From Eledone cirrhosa (lineage: Eukaryota), in assembly GCA_964016885.1 (NCBI GenBank), contig CAXHJY010000797.1:1-60573 (forward strand): DNA of 60,573 bases, given 5' to 3'. Positions 23,506 through 60,573 of this stretch are shown piece by piece. How positions within the stretch are numbered: the stretch's first letter is position 1; every line of letters begins with the position of its first letter. The translations under genes were made by a program, and so were the position numbers. The notes under the pieces are model-generated. The model was not told where the DNA came from, searched no databases, and saw nothing but the letters and a program-made list of their open reading frames with translations.

Positions 23506-25003
23506 AAAACGTGGAAGAGCTGTGCTCTCCTCTAGAAATCTAGAGATGAACGGCCTGACAATACAACCTCTACAGTCAGGTGACAACTACAGATATCTTG
23601 GACAGGATGAGAATGTCAGATATGATTGACCCATAAATAAGGAGAGAACCAGAACTGAATACCTCAGAAGAGTAAAGAAAATATGTTCATCAGAACTCAG
23701 CATACAACAAATACATTGCCCACAATACTTATGCTGTGCCAATTCTAACGCCAACATACGGCCTGCTGAACTGGTCATTGCAAGAACTAAGTGGATGTTA
23801 GAACTCGCTAAGTGGATGTTAGAACTCGAAAACTTCTCAGTGTTACTGGGAACTTTAACATCAATGGTGATGTGGATAGGCTATACTTCTCATGCAAGGA
23901 AGGTGGCCGGGGTCGAAAATCAATATTAACATCATATGAGACCCAGATAGTAACACTGAAGCAACACCTTCAACAGAGGAAAAAGGTTGGCAACCACGTT
24001 GCCCAGGTTTATGAGCATGAAAAATAAAATATCATTAGAATAGCGACTGATCTGGAGGAGAGATATGGAATAAAGCCTGATATAAATCTCTCACCCAGAG
24101 AAATCGGAAGATCCTATTCAATGTTCAAACAAGATGAAAAAATTGCCCAATTTACAGAAAAAGTTGTGCATGGATACTTGAGACGTAAAGCTCAGACCAT
24201 AGAGGAGATAAACCACTCAAAAAGCCTGGCATGGAGTTCCGACAAGTTTATGACATCACACCTTGAGGGATATATCTATGCAATACAGGAACAAGAACTC
24301 CCTACCAAATATCTGCTGCACAAAAGAGGAGGGCCAGCAGCTGACAATAAATGTAGGCTATGTAAAACAAAGATCGAGGATGTAAGCCACATTGTTGCCA
24401 GCTGCGAAAGATTGTCATCTCGCTGCTACTTCCCCATGAGACACGATGGGATAGCTAGAACCATCTGGAACGCACTTCGGAAAACAAAATTAACAACAAA
24501 TGAGGAAGAATATATTGAGACAGATGGCACTAAGGAATACTGGTGGAACCTGAAAATAAAAACTGCCACCAAATTAAAGCACAACCGGCCTGATATTGTT
24601 GTTTGGGACCACACATTGAAAACGTGTTCTGTTGTGGAGATTAGCTGCCCACTTGATGTAAACGTTGTCAGAAAAATACAGGAGAAGAAAGACATCTACG
24701 GACCATTGATGAGGAGTTTACAAATCCAGTATCCAAGATACACCTTTAGCTTCATACCCATCATTATTGGAGCTACGGGTTATATACCAACCCGCTTGGA
24801 CCAAAGTATGACTGAACTTGGATTTACGGACAAAGAGCGCAGCTCCCTAATTCATAGTCTGCAAATGGCTGCGATAGCAGGCACCTTCAAAATTTGCAAA
24901 ACATTCTTGCGATTCAAGGAATGACAATTTTTCTTTTACAACCTTGGAACCAGGAAGTTGGCCGGTCAAAAAAATATACTCTAAATTAAGAGAAAGAGAT
25001 AAC
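23506..25003 (+). mobile_element. 5'-truncated R4/Dong-clade LINE (RT thumb, CCHC, RLE), copy 1, decayed
   Basis: YRYLG, DRLY..KEGGRG, AIQEQ, CRLC..HIVASC, RHD, NRPDIVV and VEISCP. It has stops, indels and a small internal duplication at about 23788-23828. Confidence 0.88.
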
Positions 25004-25035
25004 ATATATATACATACATATATATATATATACAT

Positions 25036-25076
<41 letters not shown>

Positions 25077-25201
25077 TATATATATATACACATACACATA
25101 TATATATATATATATACACATACACATATATATATATATATACACATACACATATATATATATATATATACACATACACATATATATATATATATACACA
25201 T

Positions 25202-25244
<43 letters not shown>

Positions 25245-25258
25245 TATATACATACATA

Positions 25259-25294
<36 letters not shown>

Positions 25295-25339
25295 CACATT
25301 TATATATATATATACACATATATATATATATATACACAT

Positions 25340-25376
<37 letters not shown>

Positions 25377-25527
25377 TATACATACATATATACATATATA
25401 TATACATACATATATATATATATATACACATATATATATATATATATACACATATATATATATATATACACATACACATATATATATATATACACATACA
25501 CACACATATATATATATACACATACAC

Positions 25528-25560
<33 letters not shown>

Positions 25561-25585
25561 CATATATATATACATACATATATAT

Positions 25586-25624
<39 letters not shown>

Positions 25625-25636
25625 TATATACATACA

Positions 25637-25680
<44 letters not shown>

Positions 25681-25821
25681 CATACATATATATATATATA
25701 TATACACATACACACATATATATATATATATATACATATATATATACATATATATATACATACATATATATATACATATATATATACATACATATATATA
25801 TATACATATATATATACATAC

Positions 25822-25892
<71 letters not shown>

Positions 25893-25895
25893 TAT

Positions 25896-25936
<41 letters not shown>

Positions 25937-25975
25937 CATATATACATACATATATATATATATATACATACATAT

Positions 25976-26016
<41 letters not shown>

Positions 26017-26047
26017 CATATATATATATATATATATACATACATAT

Positions 26048-26078
<31 letters not shown>

Positions 26079-26114
26079 CATACATATATACATACACATA
26101 TATATATATATATA

Positions 26115-26148
<34 letters not shown>

Positions 26149-26485
26149 TACATACATATATATATATATACATACATACATATATACATATATATACATA
26201 CATATATATATATATACATACATACATATATACATATATATACATACATATATATATATATACATACATATATACATACATACATATATACATATATATA
26301 CATACATATATATATATATACATACATACATATATACATACATATATATATATATACATACATATATACATACATATATATATATATACATACATATATA
26401 CATACATATATATATATATATACATACATATATACATACATATATATATATATACATACATATATACATACATATATATATATAT
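25004..26485. repeat. Interrupted (TA)n microsatellite
   Basis: TA/TACA/CACA repeat. Confidence 0.97.
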
Positions 26486-27070
26486 GGTGGCTGCCAACTC
26501 GTTTTCGAGTACGGCCACTACTTTATATCCATGTAGGAGAACCCCTACCGATGCGCTGAACGAGTGTGAATTTTTAGTCCAGCCAGCGACTTGAAAACTC
26601 TGGTACAAACACTACACTTGTGACAATTATTGACACAGTGCTGGGCCCATGGTACCATGTGACGGCAAGTGCAGAGAGATCTCCAGATATAAAGCAATGC
26701 CTGTGCCGTGAAGCTTTTATAGTGAGCAAAGGCACTGCACAAAGCCAGTTCCACTCTCTTAACCAAGATGATATTTACCAAAAAGAAGAACAAGTCAACA
26801 TCATTGGATACCATCAGGGTTGCAGGTGTTATATCAGAGTTTTCCTTCTCCTAGAATTCTGCCTTGACAAAGGCTAAGGGGTCATCTCTCCCAGTGATTT
26901 TGGATGGCCATTGACTCTTAAGAGCTCCTTTGCCCTTTGACAGGTTTTGTTTTTAGTCCTGCAGGATGTCCAAAGTCACCCTCCTCACCAAGAAACCTTG
27001 GTGGGTTTGCTAGTTTAGTTGCCAACGACCCGACCATGAGACAGGTGAGATCATGAGACAGGTGAGATCA
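26486..27070 (-). mobile_element. Non-autonomous bipartite RTE-derived element, copy 4
   Basis: Encodes [23 protein letters not shown] on the minus strand. Its 5' junction carries a 17-bp tandem duplication (CATGAGACAGGTGAGAT x2 on +). Confidence 0.78.
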
Positions 27071-27108
27071 TATATATATATACATACATATATACATACA
27101 TATATATA

Positions 27109-27174
<66 letters not shown>

Positions 27175-27175
27175 C

Positions 27176-27246
<71 letters not shown>

Positions 27247-27473
27247 CATATATATATACATACATACATATATATATATACATATATATATACATACATA
27301 CATATATATATATACATATATATATACATACATACATATATATACATATATATATACATACATACATATATATACATATATATATACATACATACATATA
27401 TATACATATATATATACATACATACATATATATACATATATATATACATACATACATATATATACATATATAT

Positions 27474-27505
<32 letters not shown>

Positions 27506-27546
27506 TCATATATATATACATACATATATACATACATATACATACA

Positions 27547-27577
<31 letters not shown>

Positions 27578-27613
27578 ATACATACATATATATATATACA
27601 TACATATATATAT

Positions 27614-27646
<33 letters not shown>

Positions 27647-27651
27647 CATAG

Positions 27652-27684
<33 letters not shown>

Positions 27685-27812
27685 CATACATATATATATA
27701 TATATATACATACATACATATATATATATACATACATACATCTAAATACATACATATATATATACATACATACATGTAAATACATACATACATATACATA
27801 TATATACATATA

Positions 27813-27845
<33 letters not shown>

Positions 27846-28503
27846 CTATACATACATATATATATATACATATATATACATACATATCTATACATACATA
27901 TATATATATACATATATATATATACATATATATACATACATATATATATATATACATATATATACATATATATACATACATATCTATACATACATATATA
28001 TACATATCTATACATACATACATATATATATATACATATATATACATACATATATATATATATATATACATACATATATATATATATACATACATATATA
28101 TATATATATATACATATATACATATATATATATACATATATACATATATATATATACATATATACATATATATATACATATATATATATACATATATACA
28201 TATATATATATACATATATACATATATATATACATATATACATATATATATATACATATATATATATATACATATATACATATATATATATACATATATA
28301 TATATACATATATACATATATATATATACATATATATATATACATATATATATATACATATATATACATACATATATACATATATATATATACATATATA
28401 TACATACATATATACATATATATACATACATATATATATATATACATACATATATATACATATATATACATACATATATATATATATACATACATATATA
28501 TAC

Positions 28504-28534
<31 letters not shown>

Positions 28535-28573
28535 CATATATATATATATACATACATACATACATATATATAC

Positions 28574-28620
<47 letters not shown>

Positions 28621-28646
28621 CATACATATATATATATATACATACA
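27071..28646. repeat. Interrupted (TA)n microsatellite
   Basis: Includes a local higher-order unit of about 30 bp (about 27300-27480). Confidence 0.97.
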
Positions 28647-32110: not shown

Positions 32111-32327
32111 ATATATATACATACATATATATATATATATACATACACACATATATATATATACACACACACATATATATATATATATATACATACATAC
32201 ACACATATATATATATATATACATACACTATATATATATATATATATATACATACATACACATATATATATATATATATATACATACATACATACACACA
32301 TATATATATATATATATATACATACAT

Positions 32328-32362
<35 letters not shown>

Positions 32363-32471
32363 CATACATACACATATATATATATATATATATATACATA
32401 CATACACACATATATATATATACATACATACACATACATATATATATATACATACATATATATATATATAT

Positions 32472-32527
32472 AGAATTAGCCGTCGAAACGGCTTGAGCTC
32501 AGCTGTCGGGGTCTTACTGGTTCCTAT
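32472..32527. repeat. Single arm of the palindrome-ended element, copy 3
   Basis: Matches 15909-15964. It starts at the palindrome centre and ends at the same TTCCTAT|(AT)n junction. Confidence 0.8.
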
Positions 32528-33004
32528 ATATATATATATATATACATACATACATACATATATATATATACATACACATATATATATATATATATACATA
32601 CACATATATATATATATATATACATACACATATATATATATATATACATACATACACATATATATATATACATACATACACATATGTATATATATATACA
32701 TACATATATATATATATATACATACATACACATATATATATATATATACATACATACACATATATATATACATACATACACATATATATATATATATACA
32801 TACATATATATATATATACATACATACATACACATATATATATATATATACATACATATATATATATATATATACATACATATATATATATATATATACA
32901 TACATATATATATATATATATACATACATATATATATATACATACATACATATATATATATACATACATACATACATATATATATATACATACATACATA
33001 TATA

Positions 33005-33036
<32 letters not shown>

Positions 33037-33249
33037 CATATATATATATACATACATACATACATATATATATATACATACATACATATATATATATATA
33101 TACATACATACACATATATATATATATATACATACATACACATATATATATATATATACATACATATATATATATATATACATACATATATATATATATA
33201 TACATACATACACATATATATATATACATACATATATATATATATATAT

Positions 33250-33298
<49 letters not shown>

Positions 33299-33525
33299 CA
33301 TACATATATATATATATATATATACATACATACATATATATATATACATACATATATATATATACATACATACATATATATACATACATACATACATATA
33401 TATATATACATACATACATATATATATATACATACATACATACATATATATATATACATACATACATATATATATACATACATATATATATATATACATA
33501 CATACATACATACATATATACATAT

Positions 33526-33611
<86 letters not shown>

Positions 33612-33615
33612 ATAT

Positions 33616-33704
<89 letters not shown>

Positions 33705-33713
33705 CATACATAC
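32528..33713. repeat. (TA)n/(TACA)n microsatellite
   Basis: Direct reading. Confidence 0.97.
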
Positions 33714-36700
33714 ATATATATGTGAATATAGACATAGAATATTCGAAAATATTCTGTATGTTTATAATAAACATTTTGAAGACCTAATCGCTATAGAATA
33801 GAATACGTCACGTATTACAATTAGATTCTCGATAAAAGCAAGGGAAGTAATCTACGCGTTTCATTCTCGTTAGAAATCATCAGGACTACATATCCAGTGC
33901 TTTTATCGAGAATGACACAGCTAGAGACTTATAGAATACTTAGCTGTGTACAGGAACTGGTTTGAAAGAGCGGTTGCCGGTCCGGCAGAAATTAGAAATT
34001 GGAATAAATGCTCTGAAATAGCGATATATATGTGAATATAGACATAGAATATTCGAAAATATTCTGTATGTTTATAATAAACATTTTGAAGACCTAATCG
34101 CTATAGAATAGAATACGTCACGTATTACAATTAGATTCTCGATAAAAGCAAGGGAAGTAATCTACGCGTTTCATTCTCGTTAGAAATCATCAGGACTACA
34201 TATCCAGTGCTTTTATCGAGAATGACACAGCTAGAGACTTATAGAATACTTAGCTGTGTACAGGAACTGGTTTGAAAGAGCGGTTGCCGGTCCGGCAGAA
34301 ATTAGAAATTGGAATAAATGCTCTGAAATAGCGATATATATGTGAATATAGACATAGAATATTCGAAAATATTCTGTATGTTTATAATAAACATTTTGAA
34401 GACCTAATCGCTATAGAATAGAATACGTCACGTATTACAATTAGATTCTCGATAAAAGCAAGGGAAGTAATCTACGCGTTTCATTCTCGTTAGAAATCAT
34501 CAGGACTACATATCCAGTGCTTTTATCGAGAATGACACAGCTAGAGACTTATAGAATACTTAGCTGTGTACAGGAACTGGTTTGAAAGAGCGGTTGCCGG
34601 TCCGGCAGAAATTAGAAATTGGAATAAATGCTCTGAAATAGCGATATATATGTGAATATAGACATAGAATATTCGAAAATATTCTGTATGTTTATAATAA
34701 ACATTTTGAAGACCTAATCGCTATAGAATAGAATACGTCACGTATTACAATTAGATTCTCGATAAAAGCAAGGGAAGTAATCTACGCGTTTCATTCTCGT
34801 TAGAAATCATCAGGACTACATATCCAGTGCTTTTATCGAGAATGACACAGCTAGAGACTTATAGAATACTTAGCTGTGTACAGGAACTGGTTTGAAAGAG
34901 CGGTTGCCGGTCCGGCAGAAATTAGAAATTGGAATAAATGCTCTGAAATAGCGATATATATGTGAATATAGACATAGAATATTCGAAAATATTCTGTATG
35001 TTTATAATAAACATTTTGAAGACCTAATCGCTATAGAATAGAATACGTCACGTATTACAATTAGATTCTCGATAAAAGCAAGGGAAGTAATCTACGCGTT
35101 TCATTCTCGTTAGAAATCATCAGGACTACATATCCAGTGCTTTTATCGAGAATGACACAGCTAGAGACTTATAGAATACTTAGCTGTGTACAGGAACTGG
35201 TTTGAAAGAGCGGTTGCCGGTCCGGCAGAAATTAGAAATTGGAATAAATGCTCTGAAATAGCGATATATATGTGAATATAGACATAGAATATTCGAAAAT
35301 ATTCTGTATGTTTATAATAAACATTTTGAAGACCTAATCGCTATAGAATAGAATACGTCACGTATTACAATTAGATTCTCGATAAAAGCAAGGGAAGTAA
35401 TCTACGCGTTTCATTCTCGTTAGAAATCATCAGGACTACATATCCAGTGCTTTTATCGAGAATGACACAGCTAGAGACTTATAGAATACTTAGCTGTGTA
35501 CAGGAACTGGTTTGAAAGAGCGGTTGCCGGTCCGGCAGAAATTAGAAATTGGAATAAATGCTCTGAAATAGCGATATATATGTGAATATAGACATAGAAT
35601 ATTCGAAAATATTCTGTATGTTTATAATAAACATTTTGAAGACCTAATCGCTATAGAATAGAATACGTCACGTATTACAATTAGATTCTCGATAAAAGCA
35701 AGGGAAGTAATCTACGCGTTTCATTCTCGTTAGAAATCATCAGGACTACATATCCAGTGCTTTTATCGAGAATGACACAGCTAGAGACTTATAGAATACT
35801 TAGCTGTGTACAGGAACTGGTTTGAAAGAGCGGTTGCCGGTCCGGCAGAAATTAGAAATTGGAATAAATGCTCTGAAATAGCGATATATATGTGAATATA
35901 GACATAGAATATTCGAAAATATTCTGTATGTTTATAATAAACATTTTGAAGACCTAATCGCTATAGAATAGAATACGTCACGTATTACAATTAGATTCTC
36001 GATAAAAGCAAGGGAAGTAATCTACGCGTTTCATTCTCGTTAGAAATCATCAGGACTACATATCCAGTGCTTTTATCGAGAATGACACAGCTAGAGACTT
36101 ATAGAATACTTAGCTGTGTACAGGAACTGGTTTGAAAGAGCGGTTGCCGGTCCGGCAGAAATTAGAAATTGGAATAAATGCTCTGAAATAGCGATATATA
36201 TGTGAATATAGACATAGAATATTCGAAAATATTCTGTATGTTTATAATAAACATTTTGAAGACCTAATCGCTATAGAATAGAATACGTCACGTATTACAA
36301 TTAGATTCTCGATAAAAGCAAGGGAAGTAATCTACGCGTTTCATTCTCGTTAGAAATCATCAGGACTACATATCCAGTGCTTTTATCGAGAATGACACAG
36401 CTAGAGACTTATAGAATACTTAGCTGTGTACAGGAACTGGTTTGAAAGAGCGGTTGCCGGTCCGGCAGAAATTAGAAATTGGAATAAATGCTCTGAAATA
36501 GCGATATATATGTGAATATAGACATAGAATATTCGAAAATATTCTGTATGTTTATAATAAACATTTTGAAGACCTAATCGCTATAGAATAGAATACGTCA
36601 CGTATTACAATTAGATTCTCGATAAAAGCAAGGGAAGTAATCTACGCGTTTCATTCTCGTTAGAAATCATCAGGACTACATATCCAGTGCTTTTATCGAG

Positions 36701-37916
36701 AATGACACAGCTAGAGACTTATAGAATACTTAGCTGTGTACAGGAACTGGTTTGAAAGAGCGGTTGCCGGTCCGGCAGAAATTAGAAATTGGAATAAATG
36801 CTCTGAAATAGCGATATATATGTGAATATAGACATAGAATATTCGAAAATATTCTGTATGTTTATAATAAACATTTTGAAGACCTAATCGCTATAGAATA
36901 GAATACGTCACGTATTACAATTAGATTCTCGATAAAAGCAAGGGAAGTAATCTACGCGTTTCATTCTCGTTAGAAATCATCAGGACTACATATCCAGTGC
37001 TTTTATCGAGAATGACACAGCTAGAGACTTATAGAATACTTAGCTGTGTACAGGAACTGGTTTGAAAGAGCGGTTGCCGGTCCGGCAGAAATTAGAAATT
37101 GGAATAAATGCTCTGAAATAGCGATATATATGTGAATATAGACATAGAATATTCGAAAATATTCTGTATGTTTATAATAAACATTTTGAAGACCTAATCG
37201 CTATAGAATAGAATACGTCACGTATTACAATTAGATTCTCGATAAAAGCAAGGGAAGTAATCTACGCGTTTCATTCTCGTTAGAAATCATCAGGACTACA
37301 TATCCAGTGCTTTTATCGAGAATGACACAGCTAGAGACTTATAGAATACTTAGCTGTGTACAGGAACTGGTTTGAAAGAGCGGTTGCCGGTCCGGCAGAA
37401 ATTAGAAATTGGAATAAATGCTCTGAAATAGCGATATATATGTGAATATAGACATAGAATATTCGAAAATATTCTGTATGTTTATAATAAACATTTTGAA
37501 GACCTAATCGCTATAGAATAGAATACGTCACGTATTACAATTAGATTCTCGATAAAAGCAAGGGAAGTAATCTGCGCGTTTCATTCTCGTTAGAAATCAT
37601 CAGGACTACATATCCAGTGCTTTTATCGAGAATGACACAGCTAGAGACTTATAGAATACTTAGCTGTGTACAGGAACTGGTTTGAAAGAGCGGTTGCCGG
37701 TCCGGCAGAAATTAGAAATTGGAATAAATGCTCTGAAATAGCGATATATATGTGAATATAGACATAGAATATTCGAAAATATTCTGTATGTTTATAATAA
37801 ACATTTTGAAGACCTAATCGCTATAGAATAGAATACGTCACGTATTACAATTAGATTCTCGATAAAAGCAAGGGAAGTAATCTACGCGTTTCATTCTCGT
37901 TAGAAATCATCAGGAC
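33714..37916 (-). mobile_element. Retrozyme-like 310-bp tandem array, left arm (about 13.6 units, hammerheads on the minus strand)
   Basis: TGTGAATATA recurs every 310 bp from 33721 to 37751. Each unit contains the antisense hammerhead TACGCGTTTC..TCATCAG. Confidence 0.92.
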
Positions 37917-40900
37917 AACCGCTCTTTCAAACCAGTTCCTGTACACAGCTAAGTATTCTATAAGTCTCTAGCTGTGTCATTCTCGATAAAAGCACTGGAT
38001 ATGTAGTCCTGATGATTTCTAACGAGAATGAAACGCGTAGATTACTTCCCTTGCTTTTATCGAGAATCTAATTGTAATACGTGACGTATTCTATTCTATA
38101 GCGATTAGGTCTTCAAAATGTTTATTATAAACATACAGAATATTTTCGAATATTCTATGTCTATATTCACATATATATCGCTATTTCAGAGCATTTATTC
38201 CAATTTCTAATTTCTGCCGGACCGGCAACCGCTCTTTCAAACCAGTTCCTGTACACAGCTAAGTATTCTATAAGTCTCTAGCTGTGTCATTCTCGATAAA
38301 AGCACTGGATATGTAGTCCTGATGATTTCTAACGAGAATGAAACGCGTAGATTACTTCCCTTGCTTTTATCGAGAATCTAATTGTAATACGTGACGTATT
38401 CTATTCTATAGCGATTAGGTCTTCAAAATGTTTATTATAAACATACAGAATATTTTCGAATATTCTATGTCTATATTCACATATATATCGCTATTTCAGA
38501 GCATTTATTCCAATTTCTAATTTCTGCCGGACCGGCAACCGCTCTTTCAAACCAGTTCCTGTACACAGCTAAGTATTCTATAAGTCTCTAGCTGTGTCAT
38601 TCTCGATAAAAGCACTGGATATGTAGTCCTGATGATTTCTAACGAGAATGAAACGCGTAGATTACTTCCCTTGCTTTTATCGAGAATCTAATTGTAATAC
38701 GTGACGTATTCTATTCTATAGCGATTAGGTCTTCAAAATGTTTATTATAAACATACAGAATATTTTCGAATATTCTATGTCTATATTCACATATATATCG
38801 CTATTTCAGAGCATTTATTCCAATTTCTAATTTCTGCCGGACCGGCAACCGCTCTTTCAAACCAGTTCCTGTACACAGCTAAGTATTCTATAAGTCTCTA
38901 GCTGTGTCATTCTCGATAAAAGCACTGGATATGTAGTCCTGATGATTTCTAACGAGAATGAAACGCGTAGATTACTTCCCTTGCTTTTATCGAGAATCTA
39001 ATTGTAATACGTGACGTATTCTATTCTATAGCGATTAGGTCTTCAAAATGTTTATTATAAACATACAGAATATTTTCGAATATTCTATGTCTATATTCAC
39101 ATATATATCGCTATTTCAGAGCATTTATTCCAATTTCTAATTTCTGCCGGACCGGCAACCGCTCTTTCAAACCAGTTCCTGTACACAGCTAAGTATTCTA
39201 TAAGTCTCTAGCTGTGTCATTCTCGATAAAAGCACTGGATATGTAGTCCTGATGATTTCTAACGAGAATGAAACGCGCAGATTACTTCCCTTGCTTTTAT
39301 CGAGAATCTAATTGTAATACGTGACGTATTCTATTCTATAGCGATTAGGTCTTCAAAATGTTTATTATAAACATACAGAATATTTTCGAATATTCTATGT
39401 CTATATTCACATATATATCGCTATTTCAGAGCATTTATTCCAATTTCTAATTTCTGCCGGACCGGCAACCGCTCTTTCAAACCAGTTCCTGTACACAGCT
39501 AAGTATTCTATAAGTCTCTAGCTGTGTCATTCTCGATAAAAGCACTGGATATGTAGTCCTGATGATTTCTAACGAGAATGAAACGCGTAGATTACTTCCC
39601 TTGCTTTTATCGAGAATCTAATTGTAATACGTGACGTATTCTATTCTATAGCGATTAGGTCTTCAAAATGTTTATTATAAACATACAGAATATTTTCGAA
39701 TATTCTATGTCTATATTCACATATATATCGCTATTTCAGAGCATTTATTCCAATTTCTAATTTCTGCCGGACCGGCAACCGCTCTTTCAAACCAGTTCCT
39801 GTACACAGCTAAGTATTCTATAAGTCTCTAGCTGTGTCATTCTCGATAAAAGCACTGGATATGTAGTCCTGATGATTTCTAACGAGAATGAAACGCGTAG
39901 ATTACTTCCCTTGCTTTTATCGAGAATCTAATTGTAATACGTGACGTATTCTATTCTATAGCGATTAGGTCTTCAAAATGTTTATTATAAACATACAGAA
40001 TATTTTCGAATATTCTATGTCTATATTCACATATATATCGCTATTTCAGAGCATTTATTCCAATTTCTAATTTCTGCCGGACCGGCAACCGCTCTTTCAA
40101 ACCAGTTCCTGTACACAGCTAAGTATTCTATAAGTCTCTAGCTGTGTCATTCTCGATAAAAGCACTGGATATGTAGTCCTGATGATTTCTAACGAGAATG
40201 AAACGCGTAGATTACTTCCCTTGCTTTTATCGAGAATCTAATTGTAATACGTGACGTATTCTATTCTATAGCGATTAGGTCTTCAAAATGTTTATTATAA
40301 ACATACAGAATATTTTCGAATATTCTATGTCTATATTCACATATATATCGCTATTTCAGAGCATTTATTCCAATTTCTAATTTCTGCCGGACCGGCAACC
40401 GCTCTTTCAAACCAGTTCCTGTACACAGCTAAGTATTCTATAAGTCTCTAGCTGTGTCATTCTCGATAAAAGCACTGGATATGTAGTCCTGATGATTTCT
40501 AACGAGAATGAAACGCGTAGATTACTTCCCTTGCTTTTATCGAGAATCTAATTGTAATACGTGACGTATTCTATTCTATAGCGATTAGGTCTTCAAAATG
40601 TTTATTATAAACATACAGAATATTTTCGAATATTCTATGTCTATATTCACATATATATCGCTATTTCAGAGCATTTATTCCAATTTCTAATTTCTGCCGG
40701 ACCGGCAACCGCTCTTTCAAACCAGTTCCTGTACACAGCTAAGTATTCTATAAGTCTCTAGCTGTGTCATTCTCGATAAAAGCACTGGATATGTAGTCCT
40801 GATGATTTCTAACGAGAATGAAACGCGTAGATTACTTCCCTTGCTTTTATCGAGAATCTAATTGTAATACGTGACGTATTCTATTCTATAGCGATTAGGT

Positions 40901-43900
40901 CTTCAAAATGTTTATTATAAACATACAGAATATTTTCGAATATTCTATGTCTATATTCACATATATATCGCTATTTCAGAGCATTTATTCCAATTTCTAA
41001 TTTCTGCCGGACCGGCAACCGCTCTTTCAAACCAGTTCCTGTACACAGCTAAGTATTCTATAAGTCTCTAGCTGTGTCATTCTCGATAAAAGCACTGGAT
41101 ATGTAGTCCTGATGATTTCTAACGAGAATGAAACGCGTAGATTACTTCCCTTGCTTTTATCGAGAATCTAATTGTAATACGTGACGTATTCTATTCTATA
41201 GCGATTAGGTCTTCAAAATGTTTATTATAAACATACAGAATATTTTCGAATATTCTATGTCTATATTCACATATATATCGCTATTTCAGAGCATTTATTC
41301 CAATTTCTAATTTCTGCCGGACCGGCAACCGCTCTTTCAAACCAGTTCCTGTACACAGCTAAGTATTCTATAAGTCTCTAGCTGTGTCATTCTCGATAAA
41401 AGCACTGGATATGTAGTCCTGATGATTTCTAACGAGAATGAAACGCGTAGATTACTTCCCTTGCTTTTATCGAGAATCTAATTGTAATACGTGACGTATT
41501 CTATTCTATAGCGATTAGGTCTTCAAAATGTTTATTATAAACATACAGAATATTTTCGAATATTCTATGTCTATATTCACATATATATCGCTATTTCAGA
41601 GCATTTATTCCAATTTCTAATTTCTGCCGGACCGGCAACCGCTCTTTCAAACCAGTTCCTGTACACAGCTAAGTATTCTATAAGTCTCTAGCTGTGTCAT
41701 TCTCGATAAAAGCACTGGATATGTAGTCCTGATGATTTCTAACGAGAATGAAACGCGTAGATTACTTCCCTTGCTTTTATCGAGAATCTAATTGTAATAC
41801 GTGACGTATTCTATTCTATAGCGATTAGGTCTTCAAAATGTTTATTATAAACATACAGAATATTTTCGAATATTCTATGTCTATATTCACATATATATCG
41901 CTATTTCAGAGCATTTATTCCAATTTCTAATTTCTGCCGGACCGGCAACCGCTCTTTCAAACCAGTTCCTGTACACAGCTAAGTATTCTATAAGTCTCTA
42001 GCTGTGTCATTCTCGATAAAAGCACTGGATATGTAGTCCTGATGATTTCTAACGAGAATGAAACGCGTAGATTACTTCCCTTGCTTTTATCGAGAATCTA
42101 ATTGTAATACGTGACGTATTCTATTCTATAGCGATTAGGTCTTCAAAATGTTTATTATAAACATACAGAATATTTTCGAATATTCTATGTCTATATTCAC
42201 ATATATATCGCTATTTCAGAGCATTTATTCCAATTTCTAATTTCTGCCGGACCGGCAACCGCTCTTTCAAACCAGTTCCTGTACACAGCTAAGTATTCTA
42301 TAAGTCTCTAGCTGTGTCATTCTCGATAAAAGCACTGGATATGTAGTCCTGATGATTTCTAACGAGAATGAAACGCGTAGATTACTTCCCTTGCTTTTAT
42401 CGAGAATCTAATTGTAATACGTGACGTATTCTATTCTATAGCGATTAGGTCTTCAAAATGTTTATTATAAACATACAGAATATTTTCGAATATTCTATGT
42501 CTATATTCACATATATATCGCTATTTCAGAGCATTTATTCCAATTTCTAATTTCTGCCGGACCGGCAACCGCTCTTTCAAACCAGTTCCTGTACACAGCT
42601 AAGTATTCTATAAGTCTCTAGCTGTGTCATTCTCGATAAAAGCACTGGATATGTAGTCCTGATGATTTCTAACGAGAATGAAACGCGTAGATTACTTCCC
42701 TTGCTTTTATCGAGAATCTAATTGTAATACGTGACGTATTCTATTCTATAGCGATTAGGTCTTCAAAATGTTTATTATAAACATACAGAATATTTTCGAA
42801 TATTCTATGTCTATATTCACATATATATCGCTATTTCAGAGCATTTATTCCAATTTCTAATTTCTGCCGGACCGGCAACCGCTCTTTCAAACCAGTTCCT
42901 GTACACAGCTAAGTATTCTATAAGTCTCTAGCTGTGTCATTCTCGATAAAAGCACTGGATATGTAGTCCTGATGATTTCTAACGAGAATGAAACGCGTAG
43001 ATTACTTCCCTTGCTTTTATCGAGAATCTAATTGTAATACGTGACGTATTCTATTCTATAGCGATTAGGTCTTCAAAATGTTTATTATAAACATACAGAA
43101 TATTTTCGAATATTCTATGTCTATATTCACATATATATCGCTATTTCAGAGCATTTATTCCAATTTCTAATTTCTGCCGGACCGGCAACCGCTCTTTCAA
43201 ACCAGTTCCTGTACACAGCTAAGTATTCTATAAGTCTCTAGCTGTGTCATTCTCGATAAAAGCACTGGATATGTAGTCCTGATGATTTCTAACGAGAATG
43301 AAACGCGTAGATTACTTCCCTTGCTTTTATCGAGAATCTAATTGTAATACGTGACGTATTCTATTCTATAGCGATTAGGTCTTCAAAATGTTTATTATAA
43401 ACATACAGAATATTTTCGAATATTCTATGTCTATATTCACATATATATCGCTATTTCAGAGCATTTATTCCAATTTCTAATTTCTGCCGGACCGGCAACC
43501 GCTCTTTCAAACCAGTTCCTGTACACAGCTAAGTATTCTATAAGTCTCTAGCTGTGTCATTCTCGATAAAAGCACTGGATATGTAGTCCTGATGATTTCT
43601 AACGAGAATGAAACGCGTAGATTACTTCCCTTGCTTTTATCGAGAATCTAATTGTAATACGTGACGTATTCTATTCTATAGCGATTAGGTCTTCAAAATG
43701 TTTATTATAAACATACAGAATATTTTCGAATATTCTATGTCTATATTCACATATATATCGCTATTTCAGAGCATTTATTCCAATTTCTAATTTCTGCCGG
43801 ACCGGCAACCGCTCTTTCAAACCAGTTCCTGTACACAGCTAAGTATTCTATAAGTCTCTAGCTGTGTCATTCTCGATAAAAGCACTGGATATGTAGTCCT

Positions 43901-46900
43901 GATGATTTCTAACGAGAATGAAACGCGTAGATTACTTCCCTTGCTTTTATCGAGAATCTAATTGTAATACGTGACGTATTCTATTCTATAGCGATTAGGT
44001 CTTCAAAATGTTTATTATAAACATACAGAATATTTTCGAATATTCTATGTCTATATTCACATATATATCGCTATTTCAGAGCATTTATTCCAATTTCTAA
44101 TTTCTGCCGGACCGGCAACCGCTCTTTCAAACCAGTTCCTGTACACAGCTAAGTATTCTATAAGTCTCTAGCTGTGTCATTCTCGATAAAAGCACTGGAT
44201 ATGTAGTCCTGATGATTTCTAACGAGAATGAAACGCGTAGATTACTTCCCTTGCTTTTATCGAGAATCTAATTGTAATACGTGACGTATTCTATTCTATA
44301 GCGATTAGGTCTTCAAAATGTTTATTATAAACATACAGAATATTTTCGAATATTCTATGTCTATATTCACATATATATCGCTATTTCAGAGCATTTATTC
44401 CAATTTCTAATTTCTGCCGGACCGGCAACCGCTCTTTCAAACCAGTTCCTGTACACAGCTAAGTATTCTATAAGTCTCTAGCTGTGTCATTCTCGATAAA
44501 AGCACTGGATATGTAGTCCTGATGATTTCTAACGAGAATGAAACGCGTAGATTACTTCCCTTGCTTTTATCGAGAATCTAATTGTAATACGTGACGTATT
44601 CTATTCTATAGCGATTAGGTCTTCAAAATGTTTATTATAAACATACAGAATATTTTCGAATATTCTATGTCTATATTCACATATATATCGCTATTTCAGA
44701 GCATTTATTCCAATTTCTAATTTCTGCCGGACCGGCAACCGCTCTTTCAAACCAGTTCCTGTACACAGCTAAGTATTCTATAAGTCTCTAGCTGTGTCAT
44801 TCTCGATAAAAGCACTGGATATGTAGTCCTGATGATTTCTAACGAGAATGAAACGCGTAGATTACTTCCCTTGCTTTTATCGAGAATCTAATTGTAATAC
44901 GTGACGTATTCTATTCTATAGCGATTAGGTCTTCAAAATGTTTATTATAAACATACAGAATATTTTCGAATATTCTATGTCTATATTCACATATATATCG
45001 CTATTTCAGAGCATTTATTCCAATTTCTAATTTCTGCCGGACCGGCAACCGCTCTTTCAAACCAGTTCCTGTACACAGCTAAGTATTCTATAAGTCTCTA
45101 GCTGTGTCATTCTCGATAAAAGCACTGGATATGTAGTCCTGATGATTTCTAACGAGAATGAAACGCGTAGATTACTTCCCTTGCTTTTATCGAGAATCTA
45201 ATTGTAATACGTGACGTATTCTATTCTATAGCGATTAGGTCTTCAAAATGTTTATTATAAACATACAGAATATTTTCGAATATTCTATGTCTATATTCAC
45301 ATATATATCGCTATTTCAGAGCATTTATTCCAATTTCTAATTTCTGCCGGACCGGCAACCGCTCTTTCAAACCAGTTCCTGTACACAGCTAAGTATTCTA
45401 TAAGTCTCTAGCTGTGTCATTCTCGATAAAAGCACTGGATATGTAGTCCTGATGATTTCTAACGAGAATGAAACGCGTAGATTACTTCCCTTGCTTTTAT
45501 CGAGAATCTAATTGTAATACGTGACGTATTCTATTCTATAGCGATTAGGTCTTCAAAATGTTTATTATAAACATACAGAATATTTTCGAATATTCTATGT
45601 CTATATTCACATATATATCGCTATTTCAGAGCATTTATTCCAATTTCTAATTTCTGCCGGACCGGCAACCGCTCTTTCAAACCAGTTCCTGTACACAGCT
45701 AAGTATTCTATAAGTCTCTAGCTGTGTCATTCTCGATAAAAGCACTGGATATGTAGTCCTGATGATTTCTAACGAGAATGAAACGCGTAGATTACTTCCC
45801 TTGCTTTTATCGAGAATCTAATTGTAATACGTGACGTATTCTATTCTATAGCGATTAGGTCTTCAAAATGTTTATAATAAACATACAGAATATTTTCGAA
45901 TATTCTATGTCTATATTCACATATATATCGCTATTTCAGAGCATTTATTCCAATTTCTAATTTCTGCCGGACCGGCAACCGCTCTTTCAAACCAGTTCCT
46001 GTACACAGCTAAGTATTCTATAAGTCTCTAGCTGTGTCATTCTCGATAAAAGCACTGGATATGTAGTCCTGATGATTTCTAACGAGAATGAAACGCGCAG
46101 ATTACTTCCCTTGCTTTTATCGAGAATCTAATTGTAATACGTGACGTATTCTATTCTATAGCGATTAGGTCTTCAAAATGTTTATTATAAACATACAGAA
46201 TATTTTCGAATATTCTATGTCTATATTCACATATATATCGCTATTTCAGAGCATTTATTCCAATTTCTAATTTCTGCCGGACCGGCAACCGCTCTTTCAA
46301 ACCAGTTCCTGTACACAGCTAAGTATTCTATAAGTCTCTAGCTGTGTCATTCTCGATAAAAGCACTGGATATGTAGTCCTGATGATTTCTAACGAGAATG
46401 AAACGCGTAGATTACTTCCCTTGCTTTTATCGAGAATCTAATTGTAATACGTGACGTATTCTATTCTATAGCGATTAGGTCTTCAAAATGTTTATTATAA
46501 ACATACAGAATATTTTCGAATATTCTATGTCTATATTCACATATATATCGCTATTTCAGAGCATTTATTCCAATTTCTAATTTCTGCCGGACCGGCAACC
46601 GCTCTTTCAAACCAGTTCCTGTACACAGCTAAGTATTCTATAAGTCTCTAGCTGTGTCATTCTCGATAAAAGCACTGGATATGTAGTCCTGATGATTTCT
46701 AACGAGAATGAAACGCGTAGATTACTTCCCTTGCTTTTATCGAGAATCTAATTGTAATACGTGACGTATTCTATTCTATAGCGATTAGGTCTTCAAAATG
46801 TTTATTATAAACATACAGAATATTTTCGAATATTCTATGTCTATATTCACATATATATCGCTATTTCAGAGCATTTATTCCAATTTCTAATTTCTGCCGG

Positions 46901-49900
46901 ACCGGCAACCGCTCTTTCAAACCAGTTCCTGTACACAGCTAAGTATTCTATAAGTCTCTAGCTGTGTCATTCTCGATAAAAGCACTGGATATGTAGTCCT
47001 GATGATTTCTAACGAGAATGAAACGCGTAGATTACTTCCCTTGCTTTTATCGAGAATCTAATTGTAATACGTGACGTATTCTATTCTATAGCGATTAGGT
47101 CTTCAAAATGTTTATTATAAACATACAGAATATTTTCGAATATTCTATGTCTATATTCACATATATATCGCTATTTCAGAGCATTTATTCCAATTTCTAA
47201 TTTCTGCCGGACCGGCAACCGCTCTTTCAAACCAGTTCCTGTACACAGCTAAGTATTCTATAAGTCTCTAGCTGTGTCATTCTCGATAAAAGCACTGGAT
47301 ATGTAGTCCTGATGATTTCTAACGAGAATGAAACGCGTAGATTACTTCCCTTGCTTTTATCGAGAATCTAATTGTAATACGTGACGTATTCTATTCTATA
47401 GCGATTAGGTCTTCAAAATGTTTATTATAAACATACAGAATATTTTCGAATATTCTATGTCTATATTCACATATATATCGCTATTTCAGAGCATTTATTC
47501 CAATTTCTAATTTCTGCCGGACCGGCAACCGCTCTTTCAAACCAGTTCCTGTACACAGCTAAGTATTCTATAAGTCTCTAGCTGTGTCATTCTCGATAAA
47601 AGCACTGGATATGTAGTCCTGATGATTTCTAACGAGAATGAAACGCGTAGATTACTTCCCTTGCTTTTATCGAGAATCTAATTGTAATACGTGACGTATT
47701 CTATTCTATAGCGATTAGGTCTTCAAAATGTTTATTATAAACATACAGAATATTTTCGAATATTCTATGTCTATATTCACATATATATCGCTATTTCAGA
47801 GCATTTATTCCAATTTCTAATTTCTGCCGGACCGGCAACCGCTCTTTCAAACCAGTTCCTGTACACAGCTAAGTATTCTATAAGTCTCTAGCTGTGTCAT
47901 TCTCGATAAAAGCACTGGATATGTAGTCCTGATGATTTCTAACGAGAATGAAACGCGTAGATTACTTCCCTTGCTTTTATCGAGAATCTAATTGTAATAC
48001 GTGACGTATTCTATTCTATAGCGATTAGGTCTTCAAAATGTTTATTATAAACATACAGAATATTTTCGAATATTCTATGTCTATATTCACATATATATCG
48101 CTATTTCAGAGCATTTATTCCAATTTCTAATTTCTGCCGGACCGGCAACCGCTCTTTCAAACCAGTTCCTGTACACAGCTAAGTATTCTATAAGTCTCTA
48201 GCTGTGTCATTCTCGATAAAAGCACTGGATATGTAGTCCTGATGATTTCTAACGAGAATGAAACGCGTAGATTACTTCCCTTGCTTTTATCGAGAATCTA
48301 ATTGTAATACGTGACGTATTCTATTCTATAGCGATTAGGTCTTCAAAATGTTTATTATAAACATACAGAATATTTTCGAATATTCTATGTCTATATTCAC
48401 ATATATATCGCTATTTCAGAGCATTTATTCCAATTTCTAATTTCTGCCGGACCGGCAACCGCTCTTTCAAACCAGTTCCTGTACACAGCTAAGTATTCTA
48501 TAAGTCTCTAGCTGTGTCATTCTCGATAAAAGCACTGGATATGTAGTCCTGATGATTTCTAACGAGAATGAAACGCGCAGATTACTTCCCTTGCTTTTAT
48601 CGAGAATCTAATTGTAATACGTGACGTATTCTATTCTATAGCGATTAGGTCTTCAAAATGTTTATTATAAACATACAGAATATTTTCGAATATTCTATGT
48701 CTATATTCACATATATATCGCTATTTCAGAGCATTTATTCCAATTTCTAATTTCTGCCGGACCGGCAACCGCTCTTTCAAACCAGTTCCTGTACACAGCT
48801 AAGTATTCTATAAGTCTCTAGCTGTGTCATTCTCGATAAAAGCACTAGATATGTAGTCCTGATGATTTCTAACGAGAATGAAACGCGTAGATTACTTCCC
48901 TTGCTTTTATCGAGAATCTAATTGTAATACGTGACGTATTCTATTCTATAGCGATTAGGTCTTCAAAATGTTTATTATAAACATACAGAATATTTTCGAA
49001 TATTCTATGTCTATATTCACATATATATCGCTATTTCAGAGCATTTATTCCAATTTCTAATTTCTGCCGGACCGGCAACCGCTCTTTCAAACCAGTTCCT
49101 GTACACAGCTAAGTATTCTATAAGTCTCTAGCTGTGTCATTCTCGATAAAAGCACTGGATATGTAGTCCTGATGATTTCTAACGAGAATGAAACGCGTAG
49201 ATTACTTCCCTTGCTTTTATCGAGAATCTAATTGTAATACGTGACGTATTCTATTCTATAGCGATTAGGTCTTCAAAATGTTTATTATAAACATACAGAA
49301 TATTTTCGAATATTCTATGTCTATATTCACATATATATCGCTATTTCAGAGCATTTATTCCAATTTCTAATTTCTGCCGGACCGGCAACCGCTCTTTCAA
49401 ACCAGTTCCTGTACACAGCTAAGTATTCTATAAGTCTCTAGCTGTGTCATTCTCGATAAAAGCACTGGATATGTAGTCCTGATGATTTCTAACGAGAATG
49501 AAACGCGTAGATTACTTCCCTTGCTTTTATCGAGAATCTAATTGTAATACGTGACGTATTCTATTCTATAGCGATTAGGTCTTCAAAATGTTTATTATAA
49601 ACATACAGAATATTTTCGAATATTCTATGTCTATATTCACATATATATCGCTATTTCAGAGCATTTATTCCAATTTCTAATTTCTGCCGGACCGGCAACC
49701 GCTCTTTCAAACCAGTTCCTGTACACAGCTAAGTATTCTATAAGTCTCTAGCTGTGTCATTCTCGATAAAAGCACTGGATATGTAGTCCTGATGATTTCT
49801 AACGAGAATGAAACGCGTAGATTACTTCCCTTGCTTTTATCGAGAATCTAATTGTAATACGTGACGTATTCTATTCTATAGCGATTAGGTCTTCAAAATG

Positions 49901-50294
49901 TTTATTATAAACATACAGAATATTTTCGAATATTCTATGTCTATATTCACATATATATCGCTATTTCAGAGCATTTATTCCAATTTCTAATTTCTGCCGG
50001 ACCGGCAACCGCTCTTTCAAACCAGTTCCTGTACACAGCTAAGTATTCTATAAGTCTCTAGCTGTGTCATTCTCGATAAAAGCACTGGATATGTAGTCCT
50101 GATGATTTCTAACGAGAATGAAACGCGTAGATTACTTCCCTTGCTTTTATCGAGAATCTAATTGTAATACGTGACGTATTCTATTCTATAGCGATTAGGT
50201 CTTCAAAATGTTTATTATAAACATACAGAATATTTTCGAATATTCTATGTCTATATTCACATATATATCGCTATTTCAGAGCATTTATTCCAAT
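37916..50294 (+). mobile_element. Retrozyme-like 310-bp tandem array, right arm (about 39.9 units, hammerheads on the plus strand)
   Basis: Reverse complement of the same unit, with 40 CTGATGA cores from 38009 to 50099 at a 310-bp period. Confidence 0.92.
37979..38067 (+). ncRNA. Type I hammerhead ribozyme of the 310-bp unit (representative copy, 54 cores in total)
   Basis: Stem I GTAGTC (38003-08) / GATTAC (38040-45); core CTGATGA (38009-15); stem II TTCT-AACG-AGAA; GAAA (38030-33); palindromic ACGCGT stem III; GUA triplet with predicted cut after 38039. Stem I is extended by a perfect 16-bp helix (37979-94 / 38052-67). Confidence 0.88.
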
Positions 50295-55950
<5,656 letters not shown>

Positions 55951-56855
55951 CCCGTTCCAAAGACCCTCATGTATAGATAAGAAATGTATAACCTGTAAAA
56001 TAAGCCCCCATATTAACTGTAAAACTAGAAATGTAGTGTATAGCATAAGATGTACTGAAGGACAATGTAGAAACAAAAATATAGTGTACATAGGTGAGAC
56101 AGCTCGTAGTATAGGGGAACGAATAAATGAACACTGGCGAGACCTTCAAGATAATAAAGAATCATCTGTGCTCTACCAACATGCTAAGATAGAGCACAGA
56201 GGTAGATTAGAGAACATAGAAATAAAATAGAATCCACACACAGAAAAGATGCAATGTTTAGGCAAACTACAGAGGCAGTAAGCATAAAAGAATTACAACC
56301 CAAATTAAATAGAAAATATGAGTGGAACAGCAACATCACAACTTACAATTAAGGACAAAATGAAAACACACACAGGACAAAATGAAAACACACACACACA
56401 TAGAACAAACAACCAACCAACAATAAATAAATAAATAAATAAACAAATAGATAAATGAACACAAACACACACAGACACCCGGATGTGGCGCATGCGCAAA
56501 CTGAGCACACAACACACACACAGAAACAAAATGGCGTAGGATAGAAGAAAGGAAAGGCACAGAAACAAAGAAAGGAATCCCCAGTCACTGAAGAGGTCAC
56601 AGAGTGTGTGACGAAAGGACTATGACTATATATAAACAACTATCTGGTTGTGGAACCAACCAACCAAACAACCAGAAATTTATAAGTTTGTAGTAAGTTT
56701 GTAGATTTGTAAATTTATAAATATATAATAAATTGAAGTGAAAGCAACTGGTGCGTGTGTTTCTTATTGGCAACATGACCCTCCCAAAGTATAACAATAT
56801 CGGTTTCAACACACGATTTCAGATAAAGAATCTTGCTAAACAAATTCAGAAACGA
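55951..56855 (+). mobile_element. 5'-truncated Penelope-like element: GIY-YIG endonuclease fragment plus pLTR
   Basis: Translates as [34 protein letters not shown]...[17 protein letters not shown] (Cys-rich linker plus VY..YIGET.R motif), then a frameshift near 56225 and a pLTR with a hammerhead. Confidence 0.9.
56583..56627 (+). ncRNA. Minimal type I hammerhead ribozyme in the Penelope pLTR
   Basis: AGTCA-CTGAAGA-G-GTCACA-GAGTG-TGTGAC-GAAA-GGAC-TA-TGACT, with a perfect 6-bp stem II and 5-bp stem I. Confidence 0.82.

Positions 56856-60573
<3,718 letters not shown>

What the first reader, a model, noticed from the sequence alone, without database searches (positions are those of the whole stretch)
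33714..50294. Head-to-head arms with outward-facing 3' ends: possible twin-primed rolling-circle reverse transcription
Seen: orientation flips once, at 37916 (CAGGA-C-AACC, 1-nt microhomology). The ribozyme-sense 5' ends meet there and both 3' ends run into (TA)n. The left end stops exactly in the unit's internal ATATATAT (8-nt match to the target), and the right end stops at CAAT|ACAT (2-nt match). Neither end is at the ribozyme cleavage site. Inference: both ends of a cut (TA)n target primed cDNA synthesis at different points on a circular template, ran about 14 and 40 laps, and were then joined. That implies more than 12 kb of strand-displacing synthesis. The arms differ in length and end point, and the variant at 37574 is not mirrored at 38348, which argues against a simple fold-back copy.
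Basis: partly seen in the sequence, partly recalled or inferred. Interest (0 to 1): 0.85.

Follow-up and report, generated by a model that had tools for sequence, protein, structure and literature searches.

The report
Twin-primed insertions of ribozyme circles
A 310-base repeat carrying a predicted self-cutting ribozyme sits in this animal genome as back-to-back tandem arrays whose two outer ends stop at two fixed, different points of the repeat, which likely records a Penelope-type transposon enzyme copying one small RNA circle many times round from both ends of a DNA cut.

Summary
Observation confirmed, and it is a family-wide rule. The array is a non-LTR retrozyme (310-bp unit, type I hammerhead motif). 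80 of 90 complete arrays examined in this genome are head-to-head with 3' ends outward; in 80 of 80, one arm ends at site A (unit 118-139) and the other at site B (157-172), including 20 of 20 held-out loci on other chromosomes. The A-B stretch matches the 30-40-bp 'tail' of Penelope-like elements (PLEs), whose enzyme extends both target strands from two internal RNA sites in vitro. Both arms share one sequence variant in 51 of 52 loci (shuffled mean 8.7); 852 crossings of the ribozyme site show no excess of changes; sporadic errors favour sense T>C (22 vs 6). Best reading: PLE-driven twin priming at two fixed sites on one monomeric circle (about 0.7). Corrections: the start points are fixed, not arbitrary; typical arms are 1-1.5 kb; the 40-lap, 12-kb arm is an outlier that may be partly expanded later. 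Not shown: RNA, cleavage, partner PLE, reads over this junction. The scan noted PLE-type ends on a ribozyme-free tandem element in another genome.

The parts
33714..37916 (-). A arm: 13.56 tandem copies of the 310-bp retrozyme unit; 3' (outer) end at unit position 139 (site A), 5' end at unit 277
37916..50294 (+). B arm: 39.93 tandem copies; 5' end at unit 187, 3' (outer) end at unit 165 (site B)
37916..37916 (.). Head-to-head junction of the two 5'-truncated ends, 1-nt overlap
   Evidence: family-wide 43 of 79 junctions overlap by 1-6 nt, 14 blunt, 21 with inserts, 1 overlaps 16 nt
38003..38045 (+). Predicted type I hammerhead (first full copy of the B arm): 6-bp helix I, core at 38009-38015 and 38030-38033, 4-bp helix II, short palindromic helix III; predicted cut between 38039 and 38040; one per unit
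   Evidence: sequence; helices I and II form in the MFE of the unit opened at the cut; layout as described for metazoan type I motifs in PMC4209133; no Rfam match; cleavage untested
50260..50294 (+). PLE-type tail: the A-to-B stretch (unit 131-165) present at the B end only
   Evidence: conserved in a sister family whose hammerhead has diverged
33714..33721 (-). Site A end, merging with the (TA)n target over 8 nt
37574..37574 (-). Unit 309 T>C (predicted to spoil the cut site); the same change at 39278, 46098, 48578
   Evidence: only 8 units in the genome differ at this position in the pattern searched, 4 of them here
32111..33713 (.). Left target flank: (TA)n with ACAT interruptions
50295..60573 (.). 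Right target flank: (TA)n with ACAT interruptions in the same polarity as the left flank

Best explanation
The array is one insertion of a non-coding, hammerhead-bearing 310-bp repeat (a non-LTR retrozyme) that was likely made when a Penelope-like (PLE) reverse transcriptase-endonuclease cut both strands of a (TA)n tract and used the two DNA ends to start copying the same, likely circular, monomeric RNA at two fixed sites about 35 nt apart. Steps: (1) shown: unit, hammerhead motif, two inverted arms, one ending at site A and one at site B, both in (TA)n, both arms of one sequence variant. (2) inferred: array transcripts self-cleave and are ligated to monomer circles (shown for other retrozymes, not here). 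(3) inferred: a PLE protein, predicted dimeric for an anole PLE, binds the A-B tail, nicks both target strands, one strand starts at B and the other at A. (4) inferred: each enzyme runs round the circle, usually 3-5 laps, and stops at a random phase. (5) inferred: the two cDNA ends are joined by end-joining with 0-6 nt of microhomology or short templated patches. (6) possible: later duplication among units lengthened the longest arms, this 40-unit arm included.
For: Layout: 80 of 90 complete arrays two-armed head-to-head, none tail-to-tail; 80 of 80 have one A and one B end, 20 of 20 in a held-out set picked by a B end on contigs C2-C17. (TA)n at both ends in 50 of 59, at one end in the other 9; flank polarity the same on both sides in 8 of 8 informative loci. 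Inner 5' ends uniform over the unit (160 arms, chi-square p 0.75), 3 within 5 nt of the cut against 5.2 expected. One template: both arms share the majority variant in 51 of 52 loci with arms of 2 units or more, among 20 variants (shuffle mean 8.7, max 17 of 10,000); 14 of 80 loci carry a change fixed in every lap and seen fixed in no other sampled locus, which needs a one-unit bottleneck. Seamless laps: 852 crossings of the cut site, 5 of 123 sporadic variants within 5 nt, none an indel. Not a linear multimer as a rule: 2 of 36 sporadic variants are shared at the same lap from the outer ends. RNA-sense copying in both arms: sporadic T>C 22 vs A>G 6 in ribozyme sense (p 0.009, post hoc), in A arms 11 vs 3 and B arms 14 vs 3, on both chromosome strands. 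Ribozyme kept: 11 of 30 fixed variants lie in the hammerhead region, 0 in its 12 core positions. Machinery present: ORFs with RT plus C-terminal GIY-YIG; PLE copies here show inverted arms with a tail at one end in (TA)n (L126, L129, L133, L134, L135 among 15 loci looked at); in L133 the two ends lie 125 and 169 nt after its hammerhead cut, like 130 and 165 here. Literature: anole PLE protein cleaves and extends both strands and starts at two internal RNA sites that bound the tail (PMC11167929).
Against: No RNA, circle or cleavage shown for this unit. No partner PLE found: 7 PLE 3' regions gave no clear match to the unit (best 69 vs shuffle maximum 64). In the anole PLE in vitro, ribozyme cleavage was not needed and unprocessed RNA was the main substrate, and start sites did not differ between strands. 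22 of 123 sporadic variants recur within a locus, some as linked blocks (L062+63 offset 27 units; L048 offset 7), so arrays are also copied unit to unit after or during insertion. Two loci (L058, L067) share a variant at lap 1 of both arms only, and L088 is mixed, which a single clean circle does not explain. 10 of 90 arrays have one arm (9 A, 1 B). One sister-family locus is B/B (L149). If most sporadic variants arose after insertion, the linear-multimer and fold-back tests lose power. The T>C bias is one of six complementary pairs (about p 0.05 after correction).
Confidence: 0.68

Rival explanations
1. Same PLE twin priming at A and B, but on an uncleaved linear multimeric transcript of a donor array, with no circle.
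For: Unprocessed RNA was the main substrate of the anole PLE in vitro; L058 and L067 carry a variant at the same lap of both arms; a multimer also gives seamless laps.
Against: Only 2 of 36 sporadic variants are shared by lap; variants fixed in all laps of single loci (14 of 80) need a one-unit bottleneck; fixed variants spare the hammerhead core.
Confidence: 0.12
2. One priming event, then the cDNA folds back on itself (self-priming, as proposed for PLE inversions in PMC3846280) and the second end is set by endonuclease cleavage at the tail.
For: Gives the same head-to-head layout and shared variant; PMC8557442 ascribes the tail to endonuclease resolution; PMC3846280 proposes self-priming from junction palindromes.
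Against: The A arm is longer in 35 of 80 loci and the B arm in 45, so neither is always the copy; 1 of 37 sporadic variants in the zone to be mirrored is mirrored (smallest-loop register only); 5' phases of the two arms are unrelated; sense T>C bias in both arm types.
Confidence: 0.07
3. Dual priming: two different RNA molecules, one per target strand, held by a PLE dimer.
For: Named for L1 in PMC2837659; L088 has arms that differ at one site.
Against: 51 of 52 loci have the same variant in both arms against 8.7 expected from a mixed pool; it survives only if one donor supplies nearly all RNA in a cell, and it does not by itself explain 80 of 80 A+B.
Confidence: 0.08
4. Short PLE-type insertions of 1-2 units that grew into arrays afterwards by unequal exchange (satellite model of the 2026 preprint).
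For: Recurrent and block-duplicated variants (22 of 123); three arms of 27-45 units exceed a geometric tail (0.35 expected); the window lies among very long (TA)n tracts. Likely true in part for the longest arms.
Against: No variant is fixed in one arm and absent from the other in 80 loci; recurrences are not confined to one arm more than chance (17 vs 14.3); median arm length (1-1.5 kb) equals that of inverted PLE arms here (1.6-1.8 kb in L133, L126).
Confidence: 0.04
5. Assembly or library artefact (fold-back chimeric read).
For: The window is a whole small contig rich in repeats (C824); no independent read over this junction.
Against: Flank polarity is kept across the array; 79 other loci on large contigs follow the same A+B rule; contigs of another public run show TA joined at window 38178 (site A, 9 contigs) and 38209 (site B, 1 contig).
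Confidence: 0.01

Closest known systems
Animal non-LTR retrozymes (Cervera and de la Pena 2020, PMC7229834; Li et al. 2026, 10.64898/2026.07.22.740005)
   Same: Tandem 150-450-bp non-coding units, type I hammerhead in each, GC under 50%; multimeric cDNA from a circle by a PLE enzyme was proposed there as a hypothesis.
   Different: The passages and sections read describe no inverted arms, fixed end pairs or (TA)n targeting ('inverted' 0 times in PMC7229834); the 2026 preprint links them to PLEs by co-occurrence and pLTR homology and favours local expansion after insertion. Supplements not seen.
Endonuclease-bearing Penelope-like elements (PMC8557442, PMC3846280, PMC11167929)
   Same: Inverted 5'-truncated copy head-to-head, 30-40-bp tail at one end, (TA)n or AT-rich targets, type I hammerhead, two internal RT start sites, extension of both target strands.
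   Different: No ORF; both arms are multi-lap monomer arrays; the tail is described as optional, whereas here every two-armed array has exactly one A and one B end; no partner PLE identified.
L1 twin priming and dual priming (as described in PMC2837659)
   Same: Both nicked target strands prime cDNA; inverted arms meet at their 5' ends.
   Different: L1's first primer uses the poly(A) tail and the second an internal site; the arms are separate pieces of one linear RNA; it is a variant route. Here both sites are internal and fixed, the arms repeat the same unit, and two arms are the rule (80 of 90).
Non-autonomous Chlamys PLE derivatives such as MRC1 (PMC8557442)
   Same: Non-autonomous, PLE-mobilised, multicopy head-to-tail insertions.
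   Different: Share 3' sequence with an autonomous family; that clade lacks canonical hammerheads.

Membership tests
non-LTR retrozyme | tandem units of 150-450 bp, GC under 50% | tested here: met
   310 bp, GC 0.34-0.35
non-LTR retrozyme | type I hammerhead motif in each unit | tested here: met
   core and helices read from the sequence and folded; Rfam models did not match; 4 of 54 copies here carry a change at U16.1
non-LTR retrozyme | no protein-coding capacity | tested here: met
   no open frame of 200 aa or more within the window array; shorter frames not examined
non-LTR retrozyme | self-cleavage of the transcript | not testable with these tools
   needs in vitro transcription of a dimer
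non-LTR retrozyme | expressed as monomeric circular RNA | not testable with these tools
   only indirect genomic signs; circular fold z -4.5 against 100 shuffles
non-LTR retrozyme | homology to the pLTR of a resident PLE (2026 preprint) | tested here: inconclusive
   7 PLE 3' regions, no clear match; only 36 GIY-YIG loci of 150 listed were fetched
PLE-type insertion | inverted 5'-truncated copy, head-to-head | tested here: met
   80 of 90 complete arrays
PLE-type insertion | 30-40-bp tail at one end | tested here: met
   modal ends 130 and 165, 35 nt apart; one end each in 80 of 80
PLE-type insertion | AT-rich or (TA)n target | tested here: met
   50 of 59 with TA at both ends, 9 at one; most loci were picked by one TA end
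autonomous PLE | ORF with RT and GIY-YIG endonuclease | tested here: not met
   none in the array; such ORFs exist elsewhere in the genome
PLE-type insertion | target-site duplication or deletion | not testable with these tools
   both flanks are simple repeats and no empty allele is held
L1 twin priming | first primer on a 3' poly(A) tail | tested here: not met
   both outer ends are internal unit positions
L1 twin priming | two inverted pieces of one RNA joined at their 5' ends | tested here: met
   geometry and shared variants; works like it, not a member

The most novel reading that the evidence does not exclude
These arrays are a natural read-out of the unsolved PLE insertion reaction: a PLE dimer grips one circular RNA by its tail and obligately assigns one target strand to site A and the other to site B, so two reverse transcriptases chase each other round the same ribozyme-made circle, displacing each other's cDNA for up to tens of laps (over 12 kb here). 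Inverted pseudo-LTRs and tails of all endonuclease-bearing PLEs would come from this one twin-primed reaction, and variants recurring at one site of a locus would be repeated misreadings of a modified base on a single RNA molecule.
Probability: 0.35. Interest if true: 0.88.

Novelty: new variant of a known kind. Interest (0 to 1): 0.7.

Why it matters
Two open questions meet here: how animal retrozymes are inserted (circle plus PLE enzyme was a hypothesis) and how PLEs make their inverted copies and one-sided tails (called undefined in PMC8557442). A short, very young, non-coding passenger with an estimated 1,200-1,500 loci (inferred from 586 and 760 forward-strand end matches) gives a rule that long PLE copies hide: one arm from each of two start sites, both from one template variant, many seamless laps. 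It names a 310-nt substrate, two start sites and a target for a direct test in the existing in vitro PLE system.

Tried and rejected
DNA search of the own genome with the unit returned nothing (common words are skipped); patterns worked. Rfam: no hammerhead match. Idea that 309 T>C marks misreading at a ligation scar on all circles: rejected as a general effect; near-cut variants are at the expected rate (3 of 93 vs 3.0), and genome-wide 8 units differ at 309 against 5 at a control position. Idea that each enzyme stalls at the other primer's site: A-arm 5' ends 7 of 59 near B vs 3.2 expected (p 0.04, several windows tested), B-arm none; not accepted. Idea that fixed A>G changes are A-to-I editing of the circle: 7 A>G vs 3 T>C fixed sites against 4 vs 14 sporadic (Fisher p 0.02, post hoc), 5 T>C-type sites in the larger set; a hint only. 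Partner PLE: not found. Public runs: no RNA holder listed; 20 runs of 17 studies hold the stretch, but of 4 laid one gave 0 reads and two gave a single low-depth 340-nt contig, so no claim on spread between species is made. Sequence look-up in earlier scan findings: nothing. 10.64898/2026.09.17.752431: passages read, not relevant. No structure or complex job was run.
Full report
Observation. The window is the whole of contig C824 of a 3.0-Gb genome. Tandem Repeats Finder gives two arrays of period 310 at 33714-37916 and 37916-50294 between long (TA)n tracts. Numbering the unit from the predicted ribozyme cut, the left arm is on the minus strand, 13.56 units, outer end 139, inner end 277; the right arm is on the plus strand, 39.93 units, inner end 187, outer end 165; the arms overlap by one base. 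Only six positions in 53 units differ from the majority, and four are the same change at unit 309 (37574, 39278, 46098, 48578). Both flanks have the same ACAT polarity.

The unit. It holds a type I hammerhead motif with a 6-bp helix I, 4-bp helix II and a short palindromic helix III (38003-38045), the layout that PMC4209133 gives for most metazoan type I motifs, which act as dimers (passages). Rfam did not match it. The unit folds more stably than shuffles (z -3.9 linear; z -4.5 circular). GC is 34-35%. It fits the non-LTR retrozymes of PMC7229834 (passages). Cleavage and expression are untested.

The family. A 32-mer of the window's variant matches 4,242 times in the genome. I fetched the first 10 loci listed, then every further locus in the first 115 Mb of C1 listed by an A-end or B-end pattern, one extension, and 20 held-out loci on C2-C17, taken at every second place of a list of 60 rarer B ends. 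Of 91 arrays including the window, 1 was cut by an assembly gap (L082) and dropped; 10 have one arm (9 ending at A, 1 at B); 80 are head-to-head with 3' ends outward, 79 with one flip and L041 with an extra internal flip. In 80 of 80 one outer end lies at unit 118-139 (A) and the other at 157-172 (B). Selection fixed one end in most loci but not the other; the 10 loci picked by an internal 32-mer gave 9 A+B and one single A arm. Inner ends are uniform over the unit (p 0.75); junctions overlap by 1-6 nt in 43 of 79, are blunt in 14, carry inserts in 21 and overlap 16 nt in one; 10 of 11 inserts of 6 nt or more are short and largely match unit sequence, the other is 272 nt of unrelated DNA. Median arms are 1,066 bp (A) and 1,468 bp (B); the three longest are 27, 40 and 45 units.

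The PLE signature. PMC8557442 (passages) describes for PLEs an inverted 5'-truncated copy, a 30-40-bp tail at one end and (TA)n targets, and calls the cycle undefined. PMC11167929 (parts 1-3 of 4 read) shows a purified anole PLE protein cutting and extending both strands of AT-rich DNA and starting at two internal RNA sites that bound the tail; it is predicted dimeric; start sites did not differ by strand and ribozyme cleavage was not needed. This genome is rich in GIY-YIG frames (150 scored of 10,596 candidates), and 4 of 5 long ORFs tested have RT and GIY-YIG matches, the fifth RT only. Five of 15 such loci show inverted arms with a tail at one end; in L133 the ends are 125 and 169 nt past its hammerhead cut. 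A sister repeat family (824 B-end matches) keeps the A-B stretch while its hammerhead differs, so the tail is likely the part recognised. No PLE sharing that tail was found among 7 3' regions compared.

One template, many laps. Both arms share their majority variant in 51 of 52 testable loci among 20 variants (shuffle mean 8.7, max 17). Fourteen of 80 loci have a change fixed in every lap and in no other sampled locus (some will be rare subfamilies, as 210C>A proved). That needs a one-unit bottleneck. The cut site is crossed 852 times without excess change, so the monomer was not a linear RNA re-entered by jumps; a ligated circle fits. A linear multimer would pass its odd units to both arms at the same lap: 2 of 36 cases; a fold-back would mirror them about the junction: 1 of 37; the A arm is longer in 35 of 80. 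Sporadic substitutions favour T>C over A>G in ribozyme sense, 22 to 6, in both arm types and both chromosome strands, as expected if both arms were copied from sense RNA (G opposite U misreading is my recalled explanation; the test is post hoc). Eleven of 30 fixed variants lie in the hammerhead region and none in its 12 core positions.

Against the simple picture. Twenty-two of 123 sporadic variants recur within a locus. Some recur as linked blocks (L062+63, L048), which needs DNA-level duplication; others are scattered over both arms as chance would place them (17 in one arm vs 14.3 expected), which fits either conversion or repeated misreading of one template. The window's 309 change is such a case: 4 of the 8 genome-wide matches are here. 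Three arms of 27 units or more were seen where a geometric fit expects 0.35. So the lap counts of the longest arms, and the 12-kb single-pass claim, are not secure (my estimate 0.35). L058, L067 and L088 depart from a single clean circle, and the sister family has at least one B/B array. No read set confirmed this junction.

Mechanism. Most likely a PLE enzyme, bound to the tail of one circular monomer, nicks both strands of (TA)n; one DNA end starts at B and the other at A; both copy round the circle, stop at random, and the ends are joined. The layout, end rule and shared variants are shown; the circle, the enzyme and the order of events are inferred. Rivals are a linear multimer, fold-back with endonuclease resolution (PMC3846280, passages), dual priming (PMC2837659, passages) and later expansion (10.64898/2026.07.22.740005, parts 1-3 of 5 read).

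Novelty. The element class, the inverted-plus-tail anatomy of PLEs, the two start sites and the circle hypothesis (PMC7229834, PMC7761336, PMC4209133; passages) are in print. I found no paper that reports PLE-type inverted, tailed ends on retrozyme arrays, a strict one-A-one-B rule, or variant evidence for a monomer template, in eight searches of the open library; subscription papers and the preprint's supplements were not seen and could hold such notes. Verdict: real, a new variant of a known kind, interest 0.7.

Noticed in passing
L081:1-273, L066:3035-3301, L033:6373-6709, L102:2449-2871, L137-L149: Sister repeat family (period about 318 in L144; 824 B-end matches) with the same A-B tail but a different hammerhead; mostly A and B ends in (TA)n, one B/B array (L149).
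   Followed up: partly
L129:7495-7712, L132:3192-3333, L126:683-708, L139:1680: Short palindromic elements in (TA)n whose hammerhead core and helix II are nearly the same as this unit's but whose other sequence differs: retrozyme parts may be exchanged as modules.
   Followed up: no
L126, L129, L133, L134, L135: PLE copies with inverted arms and family-specific one-sided tails of about 37-62 nt; a census could test the A+B rule on autonomous elements.
   Followed up: partly
L088, L090, L035, L064, L067, L085, L089, L162 (unit 276): The change 276 A>G, in a UAG context in helix I, occurs on several variant backgrounds and is mixed within two loci; possibly RNA editing of the template.
   Followed up: partly
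L062+L063 (C1:97.46-97.48 Mb): 45-unit arm with two linked changes in 9 scattered units and a partly duplicated block at an offset of 27 units.
   Followed up: partly
L083:2899-3170: 272 bp of unrelated pyrimidine-rich DNA captured at a head-to-head junction.
   Followed up: no
window:30323-32025 and 24028-24921: Fragments of a non-LTR retrotransposon (RVT_1 and zf-RVT matches), unrelated to the array.
   Followed up: partly
window:614-5327, 25002-28644, 50295-60573: Very long (TA)n tracts (3.6-10 kb) with ACAT interruptions all in one polarity.
   Followed up: no
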